IMG/VR virus record: IMGVR_UViG_2597490224_000009
Span: 1-4,522 of that record
Length of the DNA: 4,522 nucleotides
Source: a virus
Lineage: Duplodnaviria; Heunggongvirae; Uroviricota; Caudoviricetes
Direction: 5' to 3' (one strand)
The position numbers and the translations under genes are program-made. The stretch's first letter is position 1, and every line of letters begins with the position of its first letter. Under the pieces are notes generated by a model. The model was given only the letters and a program-made list of their open reading frames with translations, was not told the DNA's origin and searched no databases. Positions 1 to 4,522 of this stretch are shown here, piece by piece.

Positions 1-16
1 CAGTACGCGGTTCATT

Positions 17-154
17 TCACCACCAGCGTATCTGACCGATGAAATAACCAGAGGCCATAATCACAAACACCAGCCAGATAAGAATGAACTTCCAGGTGGA
101 TAATTTTTCAGCCATCACTCGAATCTCCCGAATCAGTTTGCTAAAATCAAACAC
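17..154 (-). CDS. hypothetical small membrane peptide (~45 aa, single predicted TM helix); alternative ATG start at 115 would give 32 aa
   Basis: Read by hand from the minus strand (too short for the ORF track). GTG at 154 is preceded by AAGGAG with a 5-nt spacer; an in-frame ATG at 115 is preceded by GGGAG. Translation ...MAEKLSTWKFILIWLVFVIMASGYFIGQIRWW then TGA at 17-19: a charged N-terminal stretch followed by a ~20-residue hydrophobic segment. Lies just downstream of the terminator that follows the endolysin. Confidence 0.3.
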   Translation of the reverse strand: MFDFSKLIREIRVMAEKLSTWKFILIWLVFVIMASGYFIGQIRWW

Positions 155-190
155 ACTTTCTCCTTTGACTTTTCCGGAGTCAGGAAACAC

Positions 191-223
191 AAAACCCCGC
201 TTGGTGCCAACAAACGGGGTTTT
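191..223. terminator. putative bidirectional intrinsic terminator
   Basis: Inverted repeat AAAACCCCG (191-199) / CGGGGTTTT (215-223) with a GC core, A-run on one side and T-run on the other, so a T-tract follows the stem on both strands. The loop is large (15 nt), hence moderate confidence. Sits ~90 nt downstream of the endolysin stop. Confidence 0.5.
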
Positions 224-313
224 TACTTTTATTCACTTACGTTTCGCCACTTCGCAGGATTTCATGTTATCCGCCCGCGTGGCCATGCCTTATTTTTCAG
301 CAAAATATTCTGC

Positions 314-847
314 TTATCTGTCGATACCCCAGCACGCCAGCGCGCTCTCCTGGTCACGACGGGATACCTGACCGTAGCAGTTGTTTGAACGAATACGGCA
401 GTCTCTGCCACCGTCCTTAATCCACCAGCGAATCGCCTCACACGCTCCCCTGCGATCACCTGCATTAATTCGTTTATAAAACGTCGACGGGAAACACTTA
501 CCGGGACCAATGTTGTACGGACAGAATGACGCGATCCCCGCTTTCTGGGGTTCGCTCAATGGCACTTTGATGTTTTTCTCCACCCATGCCAGCGCCTTAT
601 CACGCTCAATGGCGTTGACCTGGTCGCATTTTTCCTTCGACAGTTTCATACCGGGAAAAACGGGTTTTCCATCCACCATCGTGGCCCCCCGACAGATGGT
701 CCAGTTGCCGGAACCATCGCGGTATGCCGTAGTGTGGTTACCCTCTTTTTCATCCAGAAACTGGTCAAGTATCTGAGGAGCTGATGCGCCTGCTCCAATC
801 AGCGCCAGAACTGCAGCTGACAGGCCGTATTTGATTTTTGCGTTCAT
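314..847 (-). CDS. phage endolysin, GH24 lysozyme with N-terminal SAR (signal-arrest-release) domain; RrrQ / phage 21 R-like
   Basis: 177-aa ORF. The N-terminus YGLSAAVLALIGAGASAP is a Gly/Ala-rich weakly hydrophobic segment typical of SAR endolysins. It is followed by the T4-lysozyme-type catalytic spacing E-x8-D-x5-T (DEKEGNHTTAYRDGSGNWTICRGAT). Length and sequence match my recollection of E. coli Qin-prophage RrrQ (177 aa). Confidence 0.9.
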   Translation of the reverse strand: MNAKIKYGLSAAVLALIGAGASAPQILDQFLDEKEGNHTTAYRDGSGNWTICRGATMVDGKPVFPGMKLSKEKCDQVNAIERDKALAWVEKNIKVPLSEPQKAGIASFCPYNIGPGKCFPSTFYKRINAGDRRGACEAIRWWIKDGGRDCRIRSNNCYGQVSRRDQESALACWGIDR

Positions 848-952
848 GGATATTTATCAGGATTTATCGGTTTCTGAACCCTGGATATGTTTATCTGTCC
901 CGGCCTGTTGAATCAGGCGGGGAAAAGGTAAAGACAATCAAGAGGATTATTT

Positions 953-1225
953 ATGGACAATAGCACCATTTCTCTACAGGAGTTGCTCGACTGCATTTCC
1001 AGGCTTCGGGATGATGTAAATGCCCTCACTGTTGCATTTTCACATCTGGCCTTATCAATTCCCAGGGAGCAAATGCTGCCAACGCTGGCATCCATTCATT
1101 TTGAATCACGCAACCCCAAATGGTCCCAGGAACAACAAAATTCTTTCAAGTGGCTGGCGGCATTGCTGGAAGAAAATTATGCTGGCAAAACTACCATTTC
1201 GGCGGAGTCTTCAGGGAACCAGTAA
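953..1225 (+). CDS. hypothetical protein (90 aa), antisense to the lysis genes, no recognisable family
   Basis: Complete ORF with a well-placed RBS (AAGAGGA ending 7 nt before ATG 953) and TAA stop at 1223-1225. No TM segment or signal peptide; predicted soluble, probably helical. Lies in a ~330-bp segment present beside endolysin copy 1 but absent from the equivalent position beside copy 2. Confidence 0.5.
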   Translation: MDNSTISLQELLDCISRLRDDVNALTVAFSHLALSIPREQMLPTLASIHFESRNPKWSQEQQNSFKWLAALLEENYAGKTTISAESSGNQ

Positions 1226-1325
1226 TCCTTCCCGGTAGCTTTCCTTTGTAGGTTATCCATACATTCTGCGCCTCTAAAATTACGGGGCGCTTTTCCGGCG
1301 ACTGCTCATCCCCTTCACATAACCC
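1197..1325. repeat. direct repeat copy A (~129 bp, near-identical to 1824-1952)
   Basis: Hand alignment: 1197-1325 matches 1824-1952 with about 3 mismatches, all near the left end. Copy A runs directly into the N gap, so its true extent is unknown. Confidence 0.85.
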
Positions 1326-1335
1326 NNNNNNNNNN
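1326..1335. other. assembly/scaffold gap (run of 10 N)
   Basis: Ten consecutive n characters in the sequence; the 185-aa track ORF 1191-1748 reads through it (XXXX). Confidence 0.95.
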
Positions 1336-1748
1336 GCCTCACATGCACCCTTACGATCACCGGCATTCAGCCGCTTATAAAACGTCGACGGGAAACACTT
1401 ACCAGGGCCAATGTTATAGGGACAGAATGACGCGATACCGGCTTTCTGTGGCTCGGTCAGTGGAACTTTTATATTGCGCTCCACCCATGCCAGCGCCTTA
1501 TCCCGCTCAATGGCGTTAACCTGGGCGCATTTTTCCTTCGACAGTTTCATTCCCGGAATAACAGGTTTACCGTCCACCATCGTTGCTCCCCGACAGATGG
1601 TCCATATGCCGGAGCCATCGCGGTATGCAGTGATGTGATTCCCCTCTTTTTCATCCAGAAACTGATCGAGAATGTCAGGCGCGGGCGCACCGACGGCAAT
1701 CAGTGCCAGAACAGCAGCCGACAGGCTGTATCTGATTTTTACGTTCAT
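1336..1748 (-). CDS. phage SAR endolysin, second copy; 3' end (C-terminal ~40 aa) missing at the N gap
   Basis: N-terminal 135 aa of the track ORF 1191-1748 align to the 314-847 endolysin with 15 substitutions (~89% identity), keeping the SAR segment and the E/D/T catalytic spacing. The part of the track ORF below the gap (1191-1325) is repeat copy A, not endolysin. Confidence 0.85.
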
Positions 1749-1811
1749 GGATATTTATCAGGATTTATCGGTTTCTGCCCACGGACAGGTTTATCTGTTC
1801 CGGTCAGTGAC

Positions 1812-2162
1812 TTAAGGTTGTGATTCCGGAGGAGTCTTCAGAGAACCAGTAATTCTTCCCGGTAGCTTTCCTTTGTAGGTTATCCATACATTCTGCGCCT
1901 CTAAAATTACGGGGCGCTTTTCCGGCGACTGCTCATCCCCTTCACATAACCCGGCAGCAACATCCAGGAAGACCTGTCTGATGCTCATTCTGGCTGCTGC
2001 CTCATAAAACTCCAGCGCGGCACCTTCAACACGGTCCAGCGAGATGTCCAGGTCAAAAATTTCACCGTCAAAGCGTTTTTTGTCCCGTAACGCTAAAGTT
2101 ACCGTAACTTTATTCTCAAAATTGCGGATCCCTTTCACAATCAGTTCATAGTTTTGAGTCAT
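1812..2162 (-). CDS. conserved lambdoid lysis-cassette protein between holin and endolysin (YdfR-like); C-terminal ~45 aa lie inside the repeat and may not be native
   Basis: 116-aa ORF with RBS GGGGAGAG ~8 nt upstream of ATG 2162, starting 4 nt after the holin stop. The holin / small protein / endolysin order matches my recollection of essQ-ydfR-rrrQ in the Qin prophage. The family assignment is from memory and unverified. Confidence 0.6.
   Translation of the reverse strand: MTQNYELIVKGIRNFENKVTVTLALRDKKRFDGEIFDLDISLDRVEGAALEFYEAAARMSIRQVFLDVAAGLCEGDEQSPEKRPVILEAQNVWITYKGKLPGRITGSLKTPPESQP
1824..1952. repeat. direct repeat copy B (~129 bp, near-identical to 1197-1325); overlaps the 3' end of CDS 1812-2162
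   Basis: See repeat copy A. Confidence 0.85.
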
Positions 2163-2166
2163 TGAA

Positions 2167-2382
2167 TTACTCTCCCCGTGCAGCCTTACGCTTGTCTTCT
2201 CTGATTTTGAAGTACAGATTTGTCAGATAAGTCAGGAAGCCCAGAACCAGACTCCCCAGTACACCAATCGCAGCCCACTGTGACGGACTGACCTGATCAA
2301 GCCACTGTAAAAACCAGTAGCCAGCACTGCCTGCGGAGGTGCCATAGGCGACACCCGTTGTTAACTTATCCATGGATTTCAT
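2167..2382 (-). CDS. class II holin (pinholin), phage 21 S21 / EssD-EssQ family, with dual-start motif
   Basis: 71-aa product [71 protein letters not shown]: two TM segments, a charged C-terminal tail, and Met1-Lys-Ser-Met4 dual start as in S21 (holin/antiholin). RBS GAGGTG ~8 nt upstream. The track's 92-aa version (to 2445) adds 21 residues that overlap the upstream terminator and is not preferred. Confidence 0.9.
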
Positions 2383-2417
2383 AACCCCACCTCGCAGATG
2401 CGGGTGCTGTGTAATGG

Positions 2418-2443
2418 AAATAAAAAGGCCACCTGACGTGGCC
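2418..2443 (-). terminator. putative rho-independent terminator between the methyltransferase and the holin
   Basis: Minus strand reads GGCCAC-GTCAG-GTGGCC (6-bp GC-rich stem, 5-nt loop; plus 2427-2443) followed at once by TTTTTATTT (complement of 2418-2426). Begins 6 nt after the methyltransferase stop codon. Confidence 0.5.
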
Positions 2444-2449
2444 ACCAGA

Positions 2450-3502
2450 TTATTTCCCCACCAGCTCGTTTATCTCTTTCACTGTCTGGTTAAACCGCTC
2501 TGACTCAAGCTCAACACCTAAGGCCCGACGCCCCAGCGCCATTGCTGCTTTTATTGTGGAACCGGATCCCATAAAAAAATCAGCAACCAGATCACCAGGT
2601 CGACTACTGGCATTGATTATTTGCCTGAGCATATCCGCCGGTTTCTCACACGGATGTTTACCCGGGTAGAACTGAACGGGTTTATGCATCCAGACATCGG
2701 AATAAGGCACGGAGACTGATACGGAGAAATAGCGCCGGAGAGATTTAAACTCATCCAGCAATTCAGAATATTTGCGATTCAGTGAATCATAAGATGCCAC
2801 CAGCTGGTGGTGTGGTTGTTCCAGTTGTTGTTCCTGAAACTTCTCTGCCGCTATACGGGAAAACAGTGCCTGTAACTTCCGATAGTCAGCCTCATTCGGC
2901 AACTGCCACTGACTGGCACCAAACCAGTGGGAAACCATATTTTTCTTACCTGTGGCTTCGGCAATTTGTTTTGCCGTTATACCCAGTTCGGCACGAGCAT
3001 CCCTGAAATACGATATCAGCGGTGCCATTATGTGCTGTTTGAGTTCCCTTTCTTTTGCCGCATAGCCGTCACTTTTGCCGCGATATGGCCCCTGGTAATG
3101 TTCAGCAAACAGAACGCGCTCTGTGGCAGGAAAATATGCGCGCAGACTTTCTTTATTACACCCATTCCAACGTCCGGACGGCTTCGCCCAGATGATATGG
3201 TTAAGCACGTTGAAACGTTCACGCATCATGATCTCAATATCAGATGCCAGGCGATGCCCACAGAACAGGTAAAGGCTTCCGGCAGGTTTTAACACCCGCC
3301 AGAACTGGGCCAGACAGTGGTCCAGCCACTTAAGGTAATCTTCGTCCCCTTTCCACTGATTGTCCCAACCGTTGGGTTTCACCTTGAAGTACGGCGGATC
3401 GGTAACAATCAGGTCAATGGAATCATCAGGCAGGGACTGAATAAAATGCAGGCAATCAGCGTTGATTAAATCAACACTGTTTATTTTTACAGTATTTTTC
3501 AT
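2450..3502 (-). CDS. DNA methyltransferase, beta-class amino-MTase (N6-adenine or N4-cytosine), apparently orphan
   Basis: 350-aa ORF with motif IV DPPY near the N-terminus (IVTDPPYF) and the AdoMet-binding motif I FxGxG near the C-terminus (DFFMGSGST). The IV-then-I order defines the beta class. No restriction endonuclease candidate adjoins it in the window. Weak SD. Confidence 0.9.
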
Positions 3503-3534
3503 GGATCAGTAAGCGTAACTCTGGTAGGCTCACT

Positions 3535-3554
3535 CTGCTTTTGCGCTAAAGCAG
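3535..3554. promoter_or_regulatory. inverted repeat CTGCTTT-N6-AAAGCAG upstream of the methyltransferase start (candidate operator or RNA hairpin)
   Basis: Perfect 7-bp inverted repeat with a 6-nt spacer, 33-52 nt upstream of the MTase ATG, within a 150-nt non-coding interval (3503-3652). Confidence 0.2.
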
Positions 3555-3652
3555 TGGGCCGTGGTTCGCTTGTGACCAGTAAGCATGAGCGAATGGCTGG
3601 CAGGTGCTACCAACACCCACCAGCCGCCCATTTTCACAGCAGGAAACCGCCA

Positions 3653-3880
3653 TTACTGGCAGCGTCTGAATTTATTCCCGTATCCGCCGTTATCCTTCGC
3701 CAGACCCGCCAGAACTAACTGAGTCAGTATTAACTGGCACCGGGCTTCGCTTACTCCGGTAGTTCTCGTCATCATGCGTGGCGTTACCCACTTGTCAGCA
3801 GGTAAGAAATGAAGGACTGCGGCGGCGGTTTCTGTCATATCTTGCTGTTTTAGCATGTCTTTTTCCCTTCTGGTTAACAT
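3653..3880 (-). CDS. hypothetical small protein (75 aa), possibly helix-turn-helix DNA-binding
   Basis: Complete ORF ATG 3880 to TAA 3653-3655, with an in-frame stop 18 codons upstream so the start cannot extend far. The segment TRTTGVSEARCQLILTQLVLAGLA resembles an HTH recognition helix. Weak SD; family not recognised. Confidence 0.4.
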   Translation of the reverse strand: MLTRREKDMLKQQDMTETAAAVLHFLPADKWVTPRMMTRTTGVSEARCQLILTQLVLAGLAKDNGGYGNKFRRCQ

Positions 3881-4064
3881 GACATACCAATAACTCTTGT
3901 CTAAAAAGCCAGCAAGATAAAAGGTCAGTATTCACGACCACCAGCGTGTTTACTGTACTGCACCAAGTTTACAGGTACAAAAAAACCGCTCAGCGGCGGG
4001 TTTAAGTTGTGTGGCGAAGTAACCACTCTTAACAGCATATTTGATTTTTTACGATTGTAAACGG

Positions 4065-4092
4065 TTGATTATTCATCTCCAATAAAAATAAT
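4065..4092 (+). promoter_or_regulatory. candidate sigma-70 promoter for the lipoprotein gene
   Basis: TTGATT (4065-4070), 16-bp spacer, AATAAT (4087-4092; 5/6 match to TATAAT), about 35 nt upstream of ATG 4127 in an AT-rich interval. Pattern match only. Confidence 0.3.
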
Positions 4093-4126
4093 TGTGTAGG
4101 TATGCCCTTAACAATGGATAAGAAAC

Positions 4127-4522
4127 ATGAATAAAATGACTGTACTATTACTTAGCGCAACTATCATTTCAGGTTGTACTTCTTCCGTACCATTGATAAA
4201 AAAAACTCAATCAGGAAAACCTGAGGGGGTTTATCAAAATACGACAAAAGATAAAGTCAAAGATGCCCTTGTGAATTACTGCAATAGTAGAGGGTTGATA
4301 ATTTACAACGCTGATAACAGCAGTGTTATATGTGGTAAAGAACTGGAAGGCGGGTCTGCTGTTTTTGGACAAATGTTAATCGGCAATGCCTATTCAACAA
4401 CCCCGGTATCAAAAGTCAGATTTACTATCGCTCAAGTTAATAACGATACAAAAGTGTGGGCCGATATGTGGATGGAAACTCAAATGGCAATGGGGCAAGT
4501 ACAACAAATGGCTATAACAGAC
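4127..4522 (+). CDS. putative lipoprotein, 5' partial view (132 codons, continues beyond the window)
   Basis: Hand-read ORF, absent from the track because it has no stop inside the window. N-terminus MNKMTVLLLSATIISGC is a classical lipoprotein signal peptide with lipobox ISG-C; the +2 residue is Thr, not Asp, which suggests outer-membrane sorting. The gene is visibly more AT-rich than the rest of the window. Confidence 0.7.
   Translation, partial: MNKMTVLLLSATIISGCTSSVPLIKKTQSGKPEGVYQNTTKDKVKDALVNYCNSRGLIIYNADNSSVICGKELEGGSAVFGQMLIGNAYSTTPVSKVRFTIAQVNNDTKVWADMWMETQMAMGQVQQMAITD

What the first reader, a model, noticed from the sequence alone, without database searches (positions are those of the whole stretch)
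4020..4522. AT-rich lipoprotein gene on the opposite strand, adjacent to the late region
The ORF starting at 4127 encodes a textbook lipoprotein signal peptide (MNKMTVLLLSATIISG-C, Thr at +2). It is transcribed opposite to the phage late genes and is visibly AT-richer than the rest of the window (by eye roughly 35-40% GC versus about 50%; not computed). It has a candidate promoter of its own. Atypical composition, opposite orientation and a surface-exposed product are typical of prophage morons such as Bor-like serum-resistance or superinfection-exclusion lipoproteins, but the sequence does not resemble lambda Bor and I cannot place it in a family. The gene is incomplete in the window.
Basis: partly seen in the sequence, partly recalled or inferred. 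Interest (0 to 1): 0.5.

Follow-up and report, generated by a model that had tools for sequence, protein, structure and literature searches.

The report
Prophage cargo gene for an outer-membrane lipoprotein
This is a real, intact, AT-rich gene carried as add-on cargo by an E. coli prophage; it encodes an outer-membrane lipoprotein of an unstudied family found almost only on phages, and its function is untested.

Summary
An ORF starts at 4127 on the + strand, opposite to every other gene in the window. It encodes a lipoprotein signal peptide (lipobox ISG-C, Thr at +2) and runs off the window. In identical genomes it is an intact 148-codon gene. Its GC is 37.6% (GC3 31.5%), the lowest of 35 prophage genes.

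It is a mobile "moron" cassette lying between a QuuD-type antiterminator gene Q and what I infer to be the late promoter pR'. In sister phages that slot holds a porin, a lipocalin lipoprotein, a PD-Lambda-1 defence gene or unknown two-gene cassettes.

The protein belongs to PHROG 3152 (unknown function). It has no Pfam, NCBIfam or PADLOC family. It is not Bor or Cor: only the signal peptides align. An exhaustive profile search finds 822 cluster representatives. Every context examined is a phage or other mobile element. Most diverged copies sit inside the tail-tip gene cluster of lambda-like phages.

The confident AlphaFold model is a generic alpha/beta fold with a co-varying cysteine pair. The +2 residue is never Asp, predicting outer-membrane sorting.

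The likeliest function is envelope-level exclusion of phages, but this is inference. The lipoprotein does not track the phage's receptor-binding domain, which argues against simple masking of its own receptor.

The parts
4127..4522 (+). Lipoprotein coding sequence: the first 132 of 148 codons. The remaining 16 codons and the stop lie beyond the window.
   Evidence: Translation. Full gene in identical genomes, L001 12228-12674 = WP_001038608.1. PHROG 3152 at E = 1e-104 over the full length. 52 of 53 copies intact.
4127..4177 (+). Signal peptide with lipobox: MNKMTVLLLSATIISG|C. Cys17 is the predicted lipid-attachment site at 4175-4177, followed by Thr at +2.
   Evidence: Sequence read directly. 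In 114 family members the Cys is present in 102. Lipobox positions are L/I/V, then A/S/T, then G/A/S. The +2 residue is never Asp. There is a weak LPAM_1 match. The signal peptide aligns with those of Bor and Cor.
4065..4092 (+). Candidate sigma-70 promoter of the lipoprotein gene: -35 TTGATT (4065-4070), 16-nt spacer, -10 AATAAT (4087-4092). This would give a 5' UTR of about 27 nt.
   Evidence: Consensus scan, 9 of 12 positions (reported as L001 12166-12193, equal to window +8101). Not experimentally mapped. A better-scoring match at 4108-4137 overlaps the start codon and was rejected.
4034..4061 (-). Inferred late promoter pR' of the prophage, divergent from and back-to-back with the lipoprotein promoter: -35 TTTACA (4061-4056), 16-nt spacer, -10 TATGCT (4039-4034).
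   Evidence: Consensus scan. Across four small-Q phages the sequence downstream of the -10 is conserved, while the -10, spacer and -35 change with the Q allele. That is expected if the Q-binding element lies between -35 and -10 (PMC6266700). Inference only; not mapped.
3979..4000 (-). Intrinsic terminator about 35-55 nt downstream of the inferred pR' (tR'-like): hairpin CCGC-TGA-GCGG followed by a run of 7 T on the minus strand.
   Evidence: Terminator scan. Annotated as 'terminator' at the homologous place in phage Ayreon. Conserved in L017, L020 and L021. The fold energy of the short transcript is unremarkable (z = -1.2).
4040..4522 (+). Window part of the mobile cassette. Similarity to phages with other cargo ends between 4002 and 4054 on the left. 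The right end lies at the Q stop codon, about 140 nt beyond the window.
   Evidence: Break points of BLAST matches. Cargo between the Q stop and the conserved block spans 641 nt here, against 1687, 1529 and 1577 nt in the porin, cdtI and 569R4 phages.

Best explanation
Shown by sequence and comparison: window 4127 onward is the 5' part of an intact 148-codon gene. The gene is a self-contained, horizontally mobile 'moron' cassette with an AT-rich upstream region carrying a candidate promoter, the gene itself, and a downstream hairpin. It sits on the opposite strand between the QuuD-type antiterminator gene Q and the start of the late operon of an E. coli lambdoid prophage. Its product has a class II (lipoprotein) signal peptide.

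Predicted from established rules: the protein is exported by Sec and lipidated on Cys17 by Lgt, LspA and Lnt. Because +2 is Thr and not Asp, Lol carries it to the outer membrane. The mature part is 132 residues (14.5 kDa, pI 8.5) and forms one compact alpha/beta domain held by a disulfide between C52 and C69.

Inferred, not shown: the gene is expressed from its own promoter in the lysogen, divergently from the late promoter. The protein acts at the cell envelope to protect the lysogen or infected cell against phage adsorption or DNA entry (superinfection exclusion), by binding a conserved outer-membrane or periplasmic component, or a component of the incoming tail tip. It probably does not work by masking the particular receptor that its own phage uses.

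The confidence given (0.4) is for the exclusion function. Confidence that this is a functional outer-membrane lipoprotein moron is about 0.9.
For: Gene and cassette: intact and identical in 185 of 5426 complete E. coli genomes and in two plaque-forming phages (PMC13190303). 52 of 53 copies are intact, with only single conservative substitutions. GC is the lowest of 35 prophage genes, and gene GC is lower than flank GC in 37 of 38 diverged loci.

Mobility: the same family occupies at least five slots, namely Q|pR', TMP|gpM, gpM|gpL, gpK|gpI and an early region, and also occurs on P1-like, Mu-like and integrase or primase-bearing elements. One TMP|gpM copy has a clear promoter and terminator of its own. 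HK022's authors annotate the K|I junction as a moron site.

Slot: sister phages with related Q alleles carry a porin, a lipocalin lipoprotein, a PD-Lambda-1 defence homolog (E = 2e-89) or unknown two-gene cassettes at the same place.

Lipoprotein and export: lipobox Cys in 102 of 114 members and +2 never Asp. C52 and C69 are both present in 103 members and both absent in 11, never one alone.

Fold: AlphaFold2 pLDDT 85.4, pTM 0.75.

Function (indirect): 31 of 38 diverged copies lie among tail genes on the same strand as those genes, some with no promoter of their own. Such copies would be expressed late in lytic growth, when a virulence factor would be of little use but an exclusion factor would help. 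The characterised siphophage exclusion lipoproteins Llp, Rtp45 and Cor are likewise encoded in the tail/receptor-binding-protein region and act from the periplasmic face of the outer membrane (PMC12685063, PMC9586334, PMC11436027).
Confidence: 0.4

Rival explanations
1. A Bor/Iss/TraT-like lysogenic-conversion factor: an outer-membrane lipoprotein expressed from the prophage that benefits the host in animals (serum resistance, adhesion, immune evasion) and has no role against phages.
For: It shares design features with lambda bor: a small lipoprotein gene on the opposite strand beside the lysis/late region, AT-rich, with its own candidate promoter. Carriers include the uropathogenic strain UTI89, avian pathogenic strains and an O157:H7 strain.
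Against: There is no homology to Bor beyond the signal peptide and no Pfam Lambda_Bor or TraT match at E <= 10. Most family members are embedded in tail operons on the same strand, some without a promoter of their own, which would put expression in late lytic growth. Relatives occur in insect and nematode symbionts, Halomonas and Sphingomonadales, which are not serum-exposed niches.
Confidence: 0.18
2. An envelope-maintenance or ligand-binding lipoprotein: the helix-grip/TBP-like domain binds a lipid or other hydrophobic ligand, or docks on an outer-membrane machine such as BAM, and helps the envelope cope with stress, including the stress of phage production.
For: The nearest folds include BamC domains, Bet v 1/SRPBCC/START lipid binders, membrane-binding KA1 domains and Flpp3. 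In a sister phage the same slot carries a Blc-type lipocalin lipoprotein. Distant relatives are fused to periplasmic PDZ domains.
Against: The fold similarity is weak and generic (about 10% identity, no Foldseek E <= 0.001), with no sequence link to BamC or lipocalin. Nothing explains the strong preference for tail-tip gene clusters. No ligand cavity could be assessed with the tools available.
Confidence: 0.14
3. A periplasmic inhibitor or immunity protein directed at a tail-tip enzyme or at lysis: for example, neutralising the NlpC/P60-JAB protein gpK of incoming or own virions, or tuning outer-membrane disruption at lysis.
For: Ten diverged copies lie directly next to gpK or gpI. Periplasmic lipoprotein immunity proteins encoded beside cell-wall hydrolase effectors are an established pattern (own knowledge, type VI secretion effector-immunity pairs). 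Two distant relatives lie near immunity-type genes, Imm11 and a weak Rap1a match.
Against: The other junctions (TMP|gpM, gpM|gpL, Q|pR', early region, P1-like and Mu-like elements) are not next to gpK. A separate Rz-type lysis gene is annotated in this prophage. The weak PHROG spanin hits cover only the signal peptide. A cell-wall-degrading role for gpK is not established (own knowledge).
Confidence: 0.07
4. Not a functional gene: a decaying remnant, a chance ORF, or a housekeeping lipoprotein gene that merely abuts a prophage.
For: It is annotated only as 'hypothetical protein'. One of 53 copies has a frameshift in the A8 run. Some database entries are 5'-truncated gene calls.
Against: 52 of 53 copies are intact with few, conservative substitutions. 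The profile search finds 822 cluster representatives with conserved motifs, a conserved lipobox and a co-varying cysteine pair. The structure prediction is confident. The distribution is sporadic, in 13 of about 185,000 species representatives, and always in mobile-element contexts.
Confidence: 0.03

Closest known systems
Cor (phi80, N15, HK022, T1): superinfection-exclusion lipoprotein that inactivates FhuA
   Same: A phage-encoded lipoprotein with a very similar signal peptide and lipobox (hhalign aligns residues 1-31). It is annotated as a moron in lambda-like siphophage tail regions. It is the functional model for the leading hypothesis (PMC11436027).
   Different: There is no similarity in the mature domain. 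The Cor precursor is 77 aa against 148 aa here. Cor lies downstream of gpJ, whereas this family sits at the TMP|M, M|L and K|I junctions or, in E. coli, next to Q. Six phages carry both genes, so they are not interchangeable.
Llp (T5, target FhuA) and Rtp45 (Rtp, target LptDE): periplasm-facing exclusion lipoproteins of siphophages
   Same: Lipoproteins of the outer membrane's inner leaflet, encoded in the tail/receptor-binding-protein region. Rtp45 has an internal disulfide. They act in infected cells and on debris (PMC12685063, PMC9586334). The family here also has a co-varying cysteine pair and a tail-module location.
   Different: Llp and Rtp45 are about 6 kDa and specific for the receptor of their own phage. 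This protein is 14.5 kDa with a full alpha/beta domain, and it does not co-vary with the gpJ receptor-binding domain. Neither appeared among the top structural matches. Direct sequence comparison with Llp and Rtp45 was not done.
Bor (lambda) / Iss: serum-resistance lipoprotein
   Same: A prophage moron on the opposite strand to the late genes, near the lysis cassette, encoding an outer-membrane lipoprotein. The signal peptides align.
   Different: The mature domains are unrelated and there is no Pfam Lambda_Bor match. The position differs: bor is downstream of Rz, while this gene is upstream of the late promoter.
Lc/NmpC porin gene of PA-2 and DLP12-type prophages
   Same: It occupies the same slot in the same orientation, between a QuuD-type Q gene and the holin, on the opposite strand (the location of nmpC in DLP12 is also established knowledge). 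It too is an outer-membrane product.
   Different: It is a beta-barrel porin, not a lipoprotein, and there is no sequence relation. Only the insertion site and the type of target compartment are shared.
BamC N-terminal domain, Flpp3 (DUF3568), DUF4468/TBP-like lipoproteins and KA1 domains (fold neighbours)
   Different: Identity is 6-16% and TM-scores are 0.3-0.67. No sequence-profile link was found. The similarity is at the level of fold class and does not show common ancestry or shared function.

Membership tests
Bacterial lipoproteins (Lgt/LspA/Lnt substrates) | N-terminal signal peptide with a positively charged start, a hydrophobic core and a lipobox [LVI][ASTVI][GAS]C | tested here: met
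   MNKMTVLLLSATIISG-C. The lipobox Cys is conserved in 102 of 114 family members with canonical residues at -3 to -1.
Bacterial lipoproteins (Lgt/LspA/Lnt substrates) | Actual lipidation and signal peptidase II cleavage | not testable with these tools
   Needs globomycin sensitivity, palmitate labelling or mass spectrometry.
Outer-membrane (Lol-sorted) lipoproteins of Enterobacterales | No Lol-avoidance signal (no Asp at +2) | tested here: met
   +2 is Thr here. Among the 95 members with a recognisable lipobox, +2 is A/V/S/T/G/Q/M and never D. Orientation (periplasmic or surface) cannot be told from sequence.
Phage morons (Hendrix/Juhala sense) | Present or absent between otherwise related phage genomes, and found at different genome positions | tested here: met
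   Sister phages with related Q alleles carry other cargo in the same slot. The family occurs in at least five slots.
Phage morons (Hendrix/Juhala sense) | Base composition different from the flanking phage genes | tested here: met
   37.6% against 51.2 +/- 4.3% GC. Gene GC is lower than flank GC in 37 of 38 diverged loci.
Phage morons (Hendrix/Juhala sense) | Own promoter and terminator (an autonomous transcription unit) | tested here: inconclusive
   The window copy has a 9-of-12 promoter match. The downstream hairpin has its T-run on the other strand. L099 has a clear promoter and terminator, and L104 has neither. No transcript data are available.
PHROG 3152 (unknown function) | Full-length match to the family profile | tested here: met
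   E = 1.3e-104, residues 1-148 on profile positions 1-148.
Bor / Iss (Pfam Lambda_Bor) | Homology of the mature domain | tested here: not met
   hhalign aligns only residues 1-38, the signal peptide. There is no Pfam match at E <= 10.
Cor superinfection-exclusion proteins | Homology of the mature domain | tested here: not met
   hhalign aligns only residues 1-31. No exclusion-annotated PHROG matched.
Receptor-matched exclusion lipoproteins (Llp / Rtp45 type) | Encoded beside, and matched to, the phage's receptor-binding protein | tested here: not met
   Identical lipoproteins occur with gpJ C-termini 53-59% identical. The E. coli carrier has an unrelated gpJ C-terminus. The window copy is next to Q, not the tail genes.
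Receptor-matched exclusion lipoproteins (Llp / Rtp45 type) | Blocks adsorption or DNA entry when expressed | not testable with these tools
   Needs plating, adsorption and injection assays.
Known anti-phage defence systems (PADLOC) | Match to a defence-system protein model | tested here: not met
   No match at E <= 10. In contrast, the phiP27 gene in the same slot matches PD-Lambda-1 at 2e-89.
BamC / helix-grip lipoprotein domains | Shared fold with significant structural score and sequence-profile support | tested here: inconclusive

The most novel reading that the evidence does not exclude
PHROG 3152 may be a previously unrecognised, widespread class of phage-borne envelope exclusion factors. 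In this reading it is a 14-kDa, disulfide-bonded outer-membrane lipoprotein that lambda-like siphophages carry inside their tail-tip gene cluster. It blocks a conserved periplasmic step of siphophage entry (tape-measure or tail-tip penetration, or a conserved outer-membrane machine) and not one specific receptor. That would make it mechanistically distinct from Cor, Llp and Rtp45. The PDZ-fused relatives in Xanthomonadales and Sphingomonadales would then capture a C-terminal peptide of the target.
Probability: 0.25. Interest if true: 0.65.

Novelty: new member of a known kind. Interest (0 to 1): 0.4.

Why it matters
Prophage-encoded envelope proteins decide which phages can infect a lysogen, and some change how a pathogen behaves in its host. 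This gene is present in 185 of 5426 complete E. coli genomes (about 3.4%), including UTI89, avian pathogenic strains and an O157:H7 strain. It belongs to a family of at least 822 sequence clusters that has no name, no Pfam entry and no experimental study. Its strong, repeated placement inside tail-tip gene clusters gives a concrete hypothesis that can be tested cheaply. Viable carrier phages (PhiR40.1 and PhiR55.1) already exist in a laboratory collection. The work also defines the interval between the QuuD-type Q gene and the inferred late promoter as a cargo-exchange slot holding porins, lipoproteins and at least one known defence gene, so it is a place to look for new accessory functions. 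None of this overturns current ideas; it adds an uncharacterised member to a familiar class.

Tried and rejected
- **Family libraries:** Pfam, NCBIfam and PADLOC scans of the protein gave no family. The weak Pfam hits (SapB_1, SUR7) are noise below their cut-offs.
- **'VirB7' name:** the UniRef name on the Xenorhabdus homolog most likely reflects only the lipid-attachment-site model, so it was rejected as homology.
- **PHROG 'Rz-like spanin' hits** (E about 0.03) cover only the signal peptide, and a separate Rz-type lysis gene is annotated in this prophage. Rejected.
- **Solved structures:** PDB sequence and profile searches found nothing.
- **BFVD viral structure search:** no hit at E <= 0.001.
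- **afdb50 fold library:** not available.
- **Direct profile comparisons:** Bor and Cor align only over the signal peptide. The HK022 K|I moron gp20 and the lipocalin from the same slot show nothing.
- **Shared receptor-binding domain among carrier phages:** not supported.
- **Best-scoring promoter match** (TTAACA-18-TAAAAT, 10 of 12): rejected because its -10 lies inside the coding sequence.
- **Rfam:** no RNA family in the Q-to-late-gene region. The only hit, a rimP leader at 158-233, is far below threshold.
- **Short pR' transcript:** it does not fold unusually stably (z = -1.2), so no small-RNA claim is made.
- **Literature:** searches for the accession, the carrier phages, the hotspot and the DLP12 late promoter found nothing on this protein or on the mapped promoter.
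- **The 126-aa database form:** it starts at codon 23 and lacks the signal peptide. All 185 complete genomes have the full-length gene at the DNA level and 52 of 53 checked copies are intact, so it is most likely a gene-calling or homopolymer artefact.
Full report

Yes. On the + strand an ATG at 4127 opens a reading frame that runs without a stop to the end of the window. It covers 132 codons and begins MNKMTVLLLSATIISGCTSS. That is a canonical lipoprotein signal peptide: a Lys in the first three residues, a hydrophobic core, the lipobox I-S-G-C with Cys17 at 4175-4177, and Thr at +2.

All other annotated genes in the window lie on the minus strand. They are two lysozyme copies, YdfR, the holin EssD, a 350-aa DNA methyltransferase and a 67-75-aa ORF.

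The composition claim, made by eye, holds when computed. Window 4020-4522 is 36.4% GC against 49.1% for 1-4019. The complete coding sequence is 37.6% GC and 31.5% GC3, against 51.2 +/- 4.3% and 52.6 +/- 7.5% for the 34 other annotated genes of the same prophage. It is the lowest of all 35.

**2. The whole gene**

Window 3900-4522 is 100% identical to many E. coli chromosomes and to the temperate phages PhiR40_1 and PhiR55_1. In E. coli SLK172 (locus L001) the gene is 447 nt and encodes 148 aa. It is annotated as hypothetical protein WP_001038608.1 and has a normal stop 16 codons beyond the window.

The gene is present at full length in 185 of 5426 complete E. coli genomes, always on chromosomes. 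Carriers include UTI89, avian pathogenic strains and an O157:H7 strain. They differ from each other only by single, mostly conservative substitutions. The one exception has a 1-nt deletion in an A8 run. So there is no pseudogene and no frameshift beyond the window.

PhiR40.1 and PhiR55.1 are plaque-forming phages used in a recent study (PMC13190303). That study says nothing about this gene.

**3. Where it sits**

The gene lies between the antiterminator gene Q (121 aa, QuuD type, 82-88% nucleotide identity to quuD) and the late genes. It is convergent with Q and divergent from the late operon.

On the minus strand, window 4061-4034 reads TTTACA, a 16-nt spacer, then TATGCT. A hairpin and T-run follow at 4000-3979.

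I compared four phages with small Q proteins: this one, a porin-carrying prophage L017, phage cdtI L020 and vB_EcoS-569R4 L021. The sequence from just downstream of the -10 through the terminator is conserved in all four. The -10, spacer and -35 change with the Q allele. Many phages with unrelated Q genes share only the part up to the hairpin or up to the -10. That is the pattern expected for a late promoter pR' whose Q-binding element lies between -35 and -10 (general rule stated in PMC6266700), followed by tR'.

I therefore infer that the cassette sits between Q and pR'. This is inference. No mapped promoter for this Q type was found in the literature. The short transcript does not fold unusually stably. 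In phage Ayreon, which has an unrelated Q, the shared terminator is a second terminator that follows extra ORFs.

The candidate promoter of the lipoprotein gene (TTGATT-16-AATAAT, 4065-4092) is back-to-back with the inferred pR' -35.

**4. The slot is a cargo-exchange site**

At the same place, between the Q stop codon and the conserved promoter-terminator block, other phages carry different cargo:

| Phage or prophage | Cargo in the slot | Strand |
|---|---|---|
| L017 | OmpC/NmpC-type porin | opposite |
| L016 | Blc-type lipocalin lipoprotein | opposite |
| cdtI (L020) | DUF6731 protein plus a 147-aa protein | opposite |
| vB_EcoS-569R4 (L021) | two unknown proteins | opposite |
| phiP27 (L019) | PD-Lambda-1 anti-phage defence homolog (E = 2e-89) | same |

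The cargo spans 641 nt here, against 1529-1687 nt in the porin, cdtI and 569R4 phages.

**5. The protein family**

The protein matches PHROG 3152 (unknown function) over its full length (E = 1e-104). It matches nothing meaningful in Pfam, NCBIfam or PADLOC.

A word-indexed search found only about 30 relatives, all in Enterobacterales. An exhaustive profile search of 1.84 billion cluster representatives found 822 at E <= 0.001 and 408 at E <= 1e-10. None of the 114 members scanned has a Pfam family for this domain. Fifteen of the longer ones carry a C-terminal PDZ domain, and a few carry SHOCT, TPR or SH3. Named examples are 'PDZ domain-containing proteins' of Xanthomonas, Stenotrophomonas and Sphingomicrobium.

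Across the 114 sequences:
- The lipobox Cys is present in 102.
- The +2 residue is never Asp, which by the E. coli Lol rule predicts outer-membrane sorting.
- The two internal cysteines (C52, C69) are both present in 103 and both absent in 11, never one alone. This is good covariation evidence for a disulfide, and so for an exported protein.

**6. Structure**

AlphaFold2 with a 20-sequence alignment gives a confident model (pLDDT 85.4, pTM 0.75). After the signal peptide the order of elements is strand, helix, two strands, helix, three strands, helix.

Foldseek agrees on the same set but finds nothing at E <= 0.001 in either the PDB or the viral BFVD library. The fold class is clear, but no specific family or function follows from it. 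Sequence profiles find no solved relative.

**7. Genomic contexts of relatives**

This was the most informative analysis. The 63-72% identical homologs in Salmonella, Jejubacter and Citrobacter are also in lambda-like prophages. There they lie inside the tail-tip gene cluster and on the same strand as the tail genes. An Enterobacter copy lies next to DarA and DdrB genes, as in P1-like elements. A Phytobacter copy lies in the early region.

Only 13 of about 185,000 species-representative genomes carry a relative detectable with the scan's peptide patterns, whereas 75 IMG/VR viral contigs do.

I labelled neighbours by BLAST against annotated phage proteins:

| Group | Loci | Position |
|---|---|---|
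| E. coli-type (>= 95% identity) | 50 | all in the Q slot |
| Diverged | 10 | gpK\|gpI junction (9, plus 1 with extra cargo) |
| Diverged | 7 | TMP\|gpM junction |
| Diverged | 3 | gpM\|gpL junction |
| Diverged | 11 | elsewhere among tail genes |
| Diverged | 1 | early region |
| Diverged | 6 | no recognisable phage neighbour (5), or only a peptidase-M15 gene nearby (1) |

Some contigs are duplicated between the two collections.

Gene GC is below flank GC in 37 of the 38 diverged loci. One TMP|gpM copy has a clear promoter and a strong terminator of its own. One gpK|gpI copy has neither. HK022's annotation marks the K|I junction as a moron site.

Distant copies are also on mobile elements:
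- next to AlpA and a primase, with HicAB beside it, or next to an integrase
- beside a phage capsid gene, AlpA and HNH
- in an island with Imm11 and RadC
- beside a DUF3164 gene, a family I know from Mu-like prophages, in Halomonas
- at a prophage edge in Sphingosinicella

No context suggested a housekeeping gene.

**8. What does it do?**

Nothing is known experimentally, and the accession appears in no searchable paper. I commit to an envelope-level exclusion or protection function as the most likely, for indirect reasons:
- The product is targeted to the compartment where phages adsorb and enter.
- The family is confined to phages and other mobile elements.
- Most members are embedded in tail operons, and some would be expressed only late in lytic growth. 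A serum-resistance factor would be useless at that time, whereas a factor that stops adsorption or entry would help.
- The characterised siphophage exclusion lipoproteins Cor, Llp and Rtp45 are also encoded in the tail/receptor-binding region and act from the periplasmic face of the outer membrane (PMC11436027, PMC9586334, PMC12685063).

**9. Tests that cut against the simplest version**

- Bor and Cor align with the family only over the signal peptide.
- The mature protein (132 residues) is about twice the size of Llp and Rtp45 (about 6 kDa) and of Cor (a 77-residue precursor).
- The tail-slot carriers have HK022-like gpJ proteins, whereas the E. coli carrier has a different gpJ whose C-terminal 250 residues share no more than a ~50-residue local match with theirs.
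- Among tail-slot phages, identical lipoproteins occur with gpJ C-terminal domains only 53-59% identical, while the neighbouring gpK is 94-100% identical.
- Six carriers also encode Cor.

So this is not a receptor-matched blocker of the Llp or Rtp45 type. If it excludes phages, it more likely acts on a conserved host component or a conserved step of entry. My confidence is about 0.9 that it is a functional outer-membrane lipoprotein moron, and about 0.4 that its role is phage exclusion.

**10. Novelty and verdict**

The kind of thing, a prophage moron encoding an outer-membrane lipoprotein, is well known. The slot next to Q was already known to hold the Lc/NmpC porin gene in PA-2 and DLP12-type phages (own knowledge, consistent). 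The family itself is uncharacterised and unnamed. Its preference for tail-tip gene clusters appears not to have been described in the literature I could search.

I rate it a new member of a known kind, of moderate interest.

Noticed in passing
window 1196-1952 (N run at 1326-1335): A run of 10 N joins two related lysis-region segments. 435-734 and 1336-1635 are 86% identical (two lysozyme copies), and 1196-1325 and 1823-1952 are 97% identical (YdfR 3' part). The 'second lysozyme' ORF 1191-1748 is a chimera across the gap. This looks like a scaffolding join or a collapsed repeat between two prophages, not a real tandem duplication.
   Followed up: partly
window 3979-4061, minus strand: A promoter-like element (TTTACA-16-TATGCT) followed within about 35-55 nt by a terminator. 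The part downstream of the -10 is conserved across phages with different Q alleles, while the -10 to -35 part changes with the Q allele. It is probably pR'/tR' of QuuD-type lambdoid phages, giving a transcript of about 50-55 nt when terminated. Not mapped experimentally.
   Followed up: yes
L016 2784-3308; L017 2205-3287; L019 3169-4398; L020 3236-4624; L021 3289-4684: The interval between the small Q gene and the inferred pR' is a cargo-exchange slot. In different phages it holds a lipocalin lipoprotein, an OmpC/NmpC-type porin, a PD-Lambda-1 defence homolog, a DUF6731 two-gene cassette, or two unknown genes. The two unknown two-gene cassettes are candidates for new accessory or defence functions.
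   Followed up: partly
window 4198-4205: An A8 homopolymer at codons 24-27 of the lipoprotein gene. One of 53 copies (L086) has a 1-nt deletion there that frameshifts the gene. Some database proteins (a 147-aa form and a 126-aa form that starts at codon 23) may stem from it. It could be sequencing error or a slipped-strand on/off switch.
   Followed up: partly
protein residues C52 and C69 (window 4280-4282 and 4331-4333): The two internal cysteines co-vary perfectly in 114 family members: both present in 103, both absent in 11, never one alone. This indicates a disulfide.
   Followed up: yes
P0229, P0237, P0239; L013 6001-6930; L037 5740-6699: Distant relatives in Xanthomonas, Stenotrophomonas, Sphingomicrobium and Sphingosinicella fuse this lipoprotein domain to a C-terminal PDZ domain, sometimes with SHOCT as well. 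They also sit at prophage or island edges. This architecture seems undescribed.
   Followed up: partly
L115 (E. coli O157:H7 NE 1092-2), 1-8701: The same Q protein and the lipoprotein cassette head a late region of the Stx-phage type: tRNA-Ile, two tRNA-Arg, TerB, DUF3927, a SASA/NanS-p-type esterase, then holin. No stx gene is present.
   Followed up: no
window 953-1225, + strand: A 90-aa ORF on the + strand between the first lysozyme copy and the N gap, opposite to the lysis genes. It is absent from the collinear prophage L001. Not examined.
   Followed up: no
window 2450-3502, minus strand: A 350-aa DNA methyltransferase is the first large gene downstream of the inferred pR'/tR', ahead of the holin. 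The same arrangement occurs in phiP27, cdtI, Ayreon and 569R4.
   Followed up: no
L087, L104-L107, L109: Six tail-slot carriers of the lipoprotein also encode a Cor homolog (36-58% identity to HK022 Cor) downstream of gpJ. These phages therefore carry two different lipoprotein morons in one tail module.
   Followed up: partly
window 158-233, + strand: A sub-threshold Rfam match to the rimP leader (24.7 bits against a gathering score of 47). It is essentially a GC hairpin plus a U-run, so it is most likely just an intrinsic terminator downstream of the lysis genes on the other strand's intergenic region.
   Followed up: no
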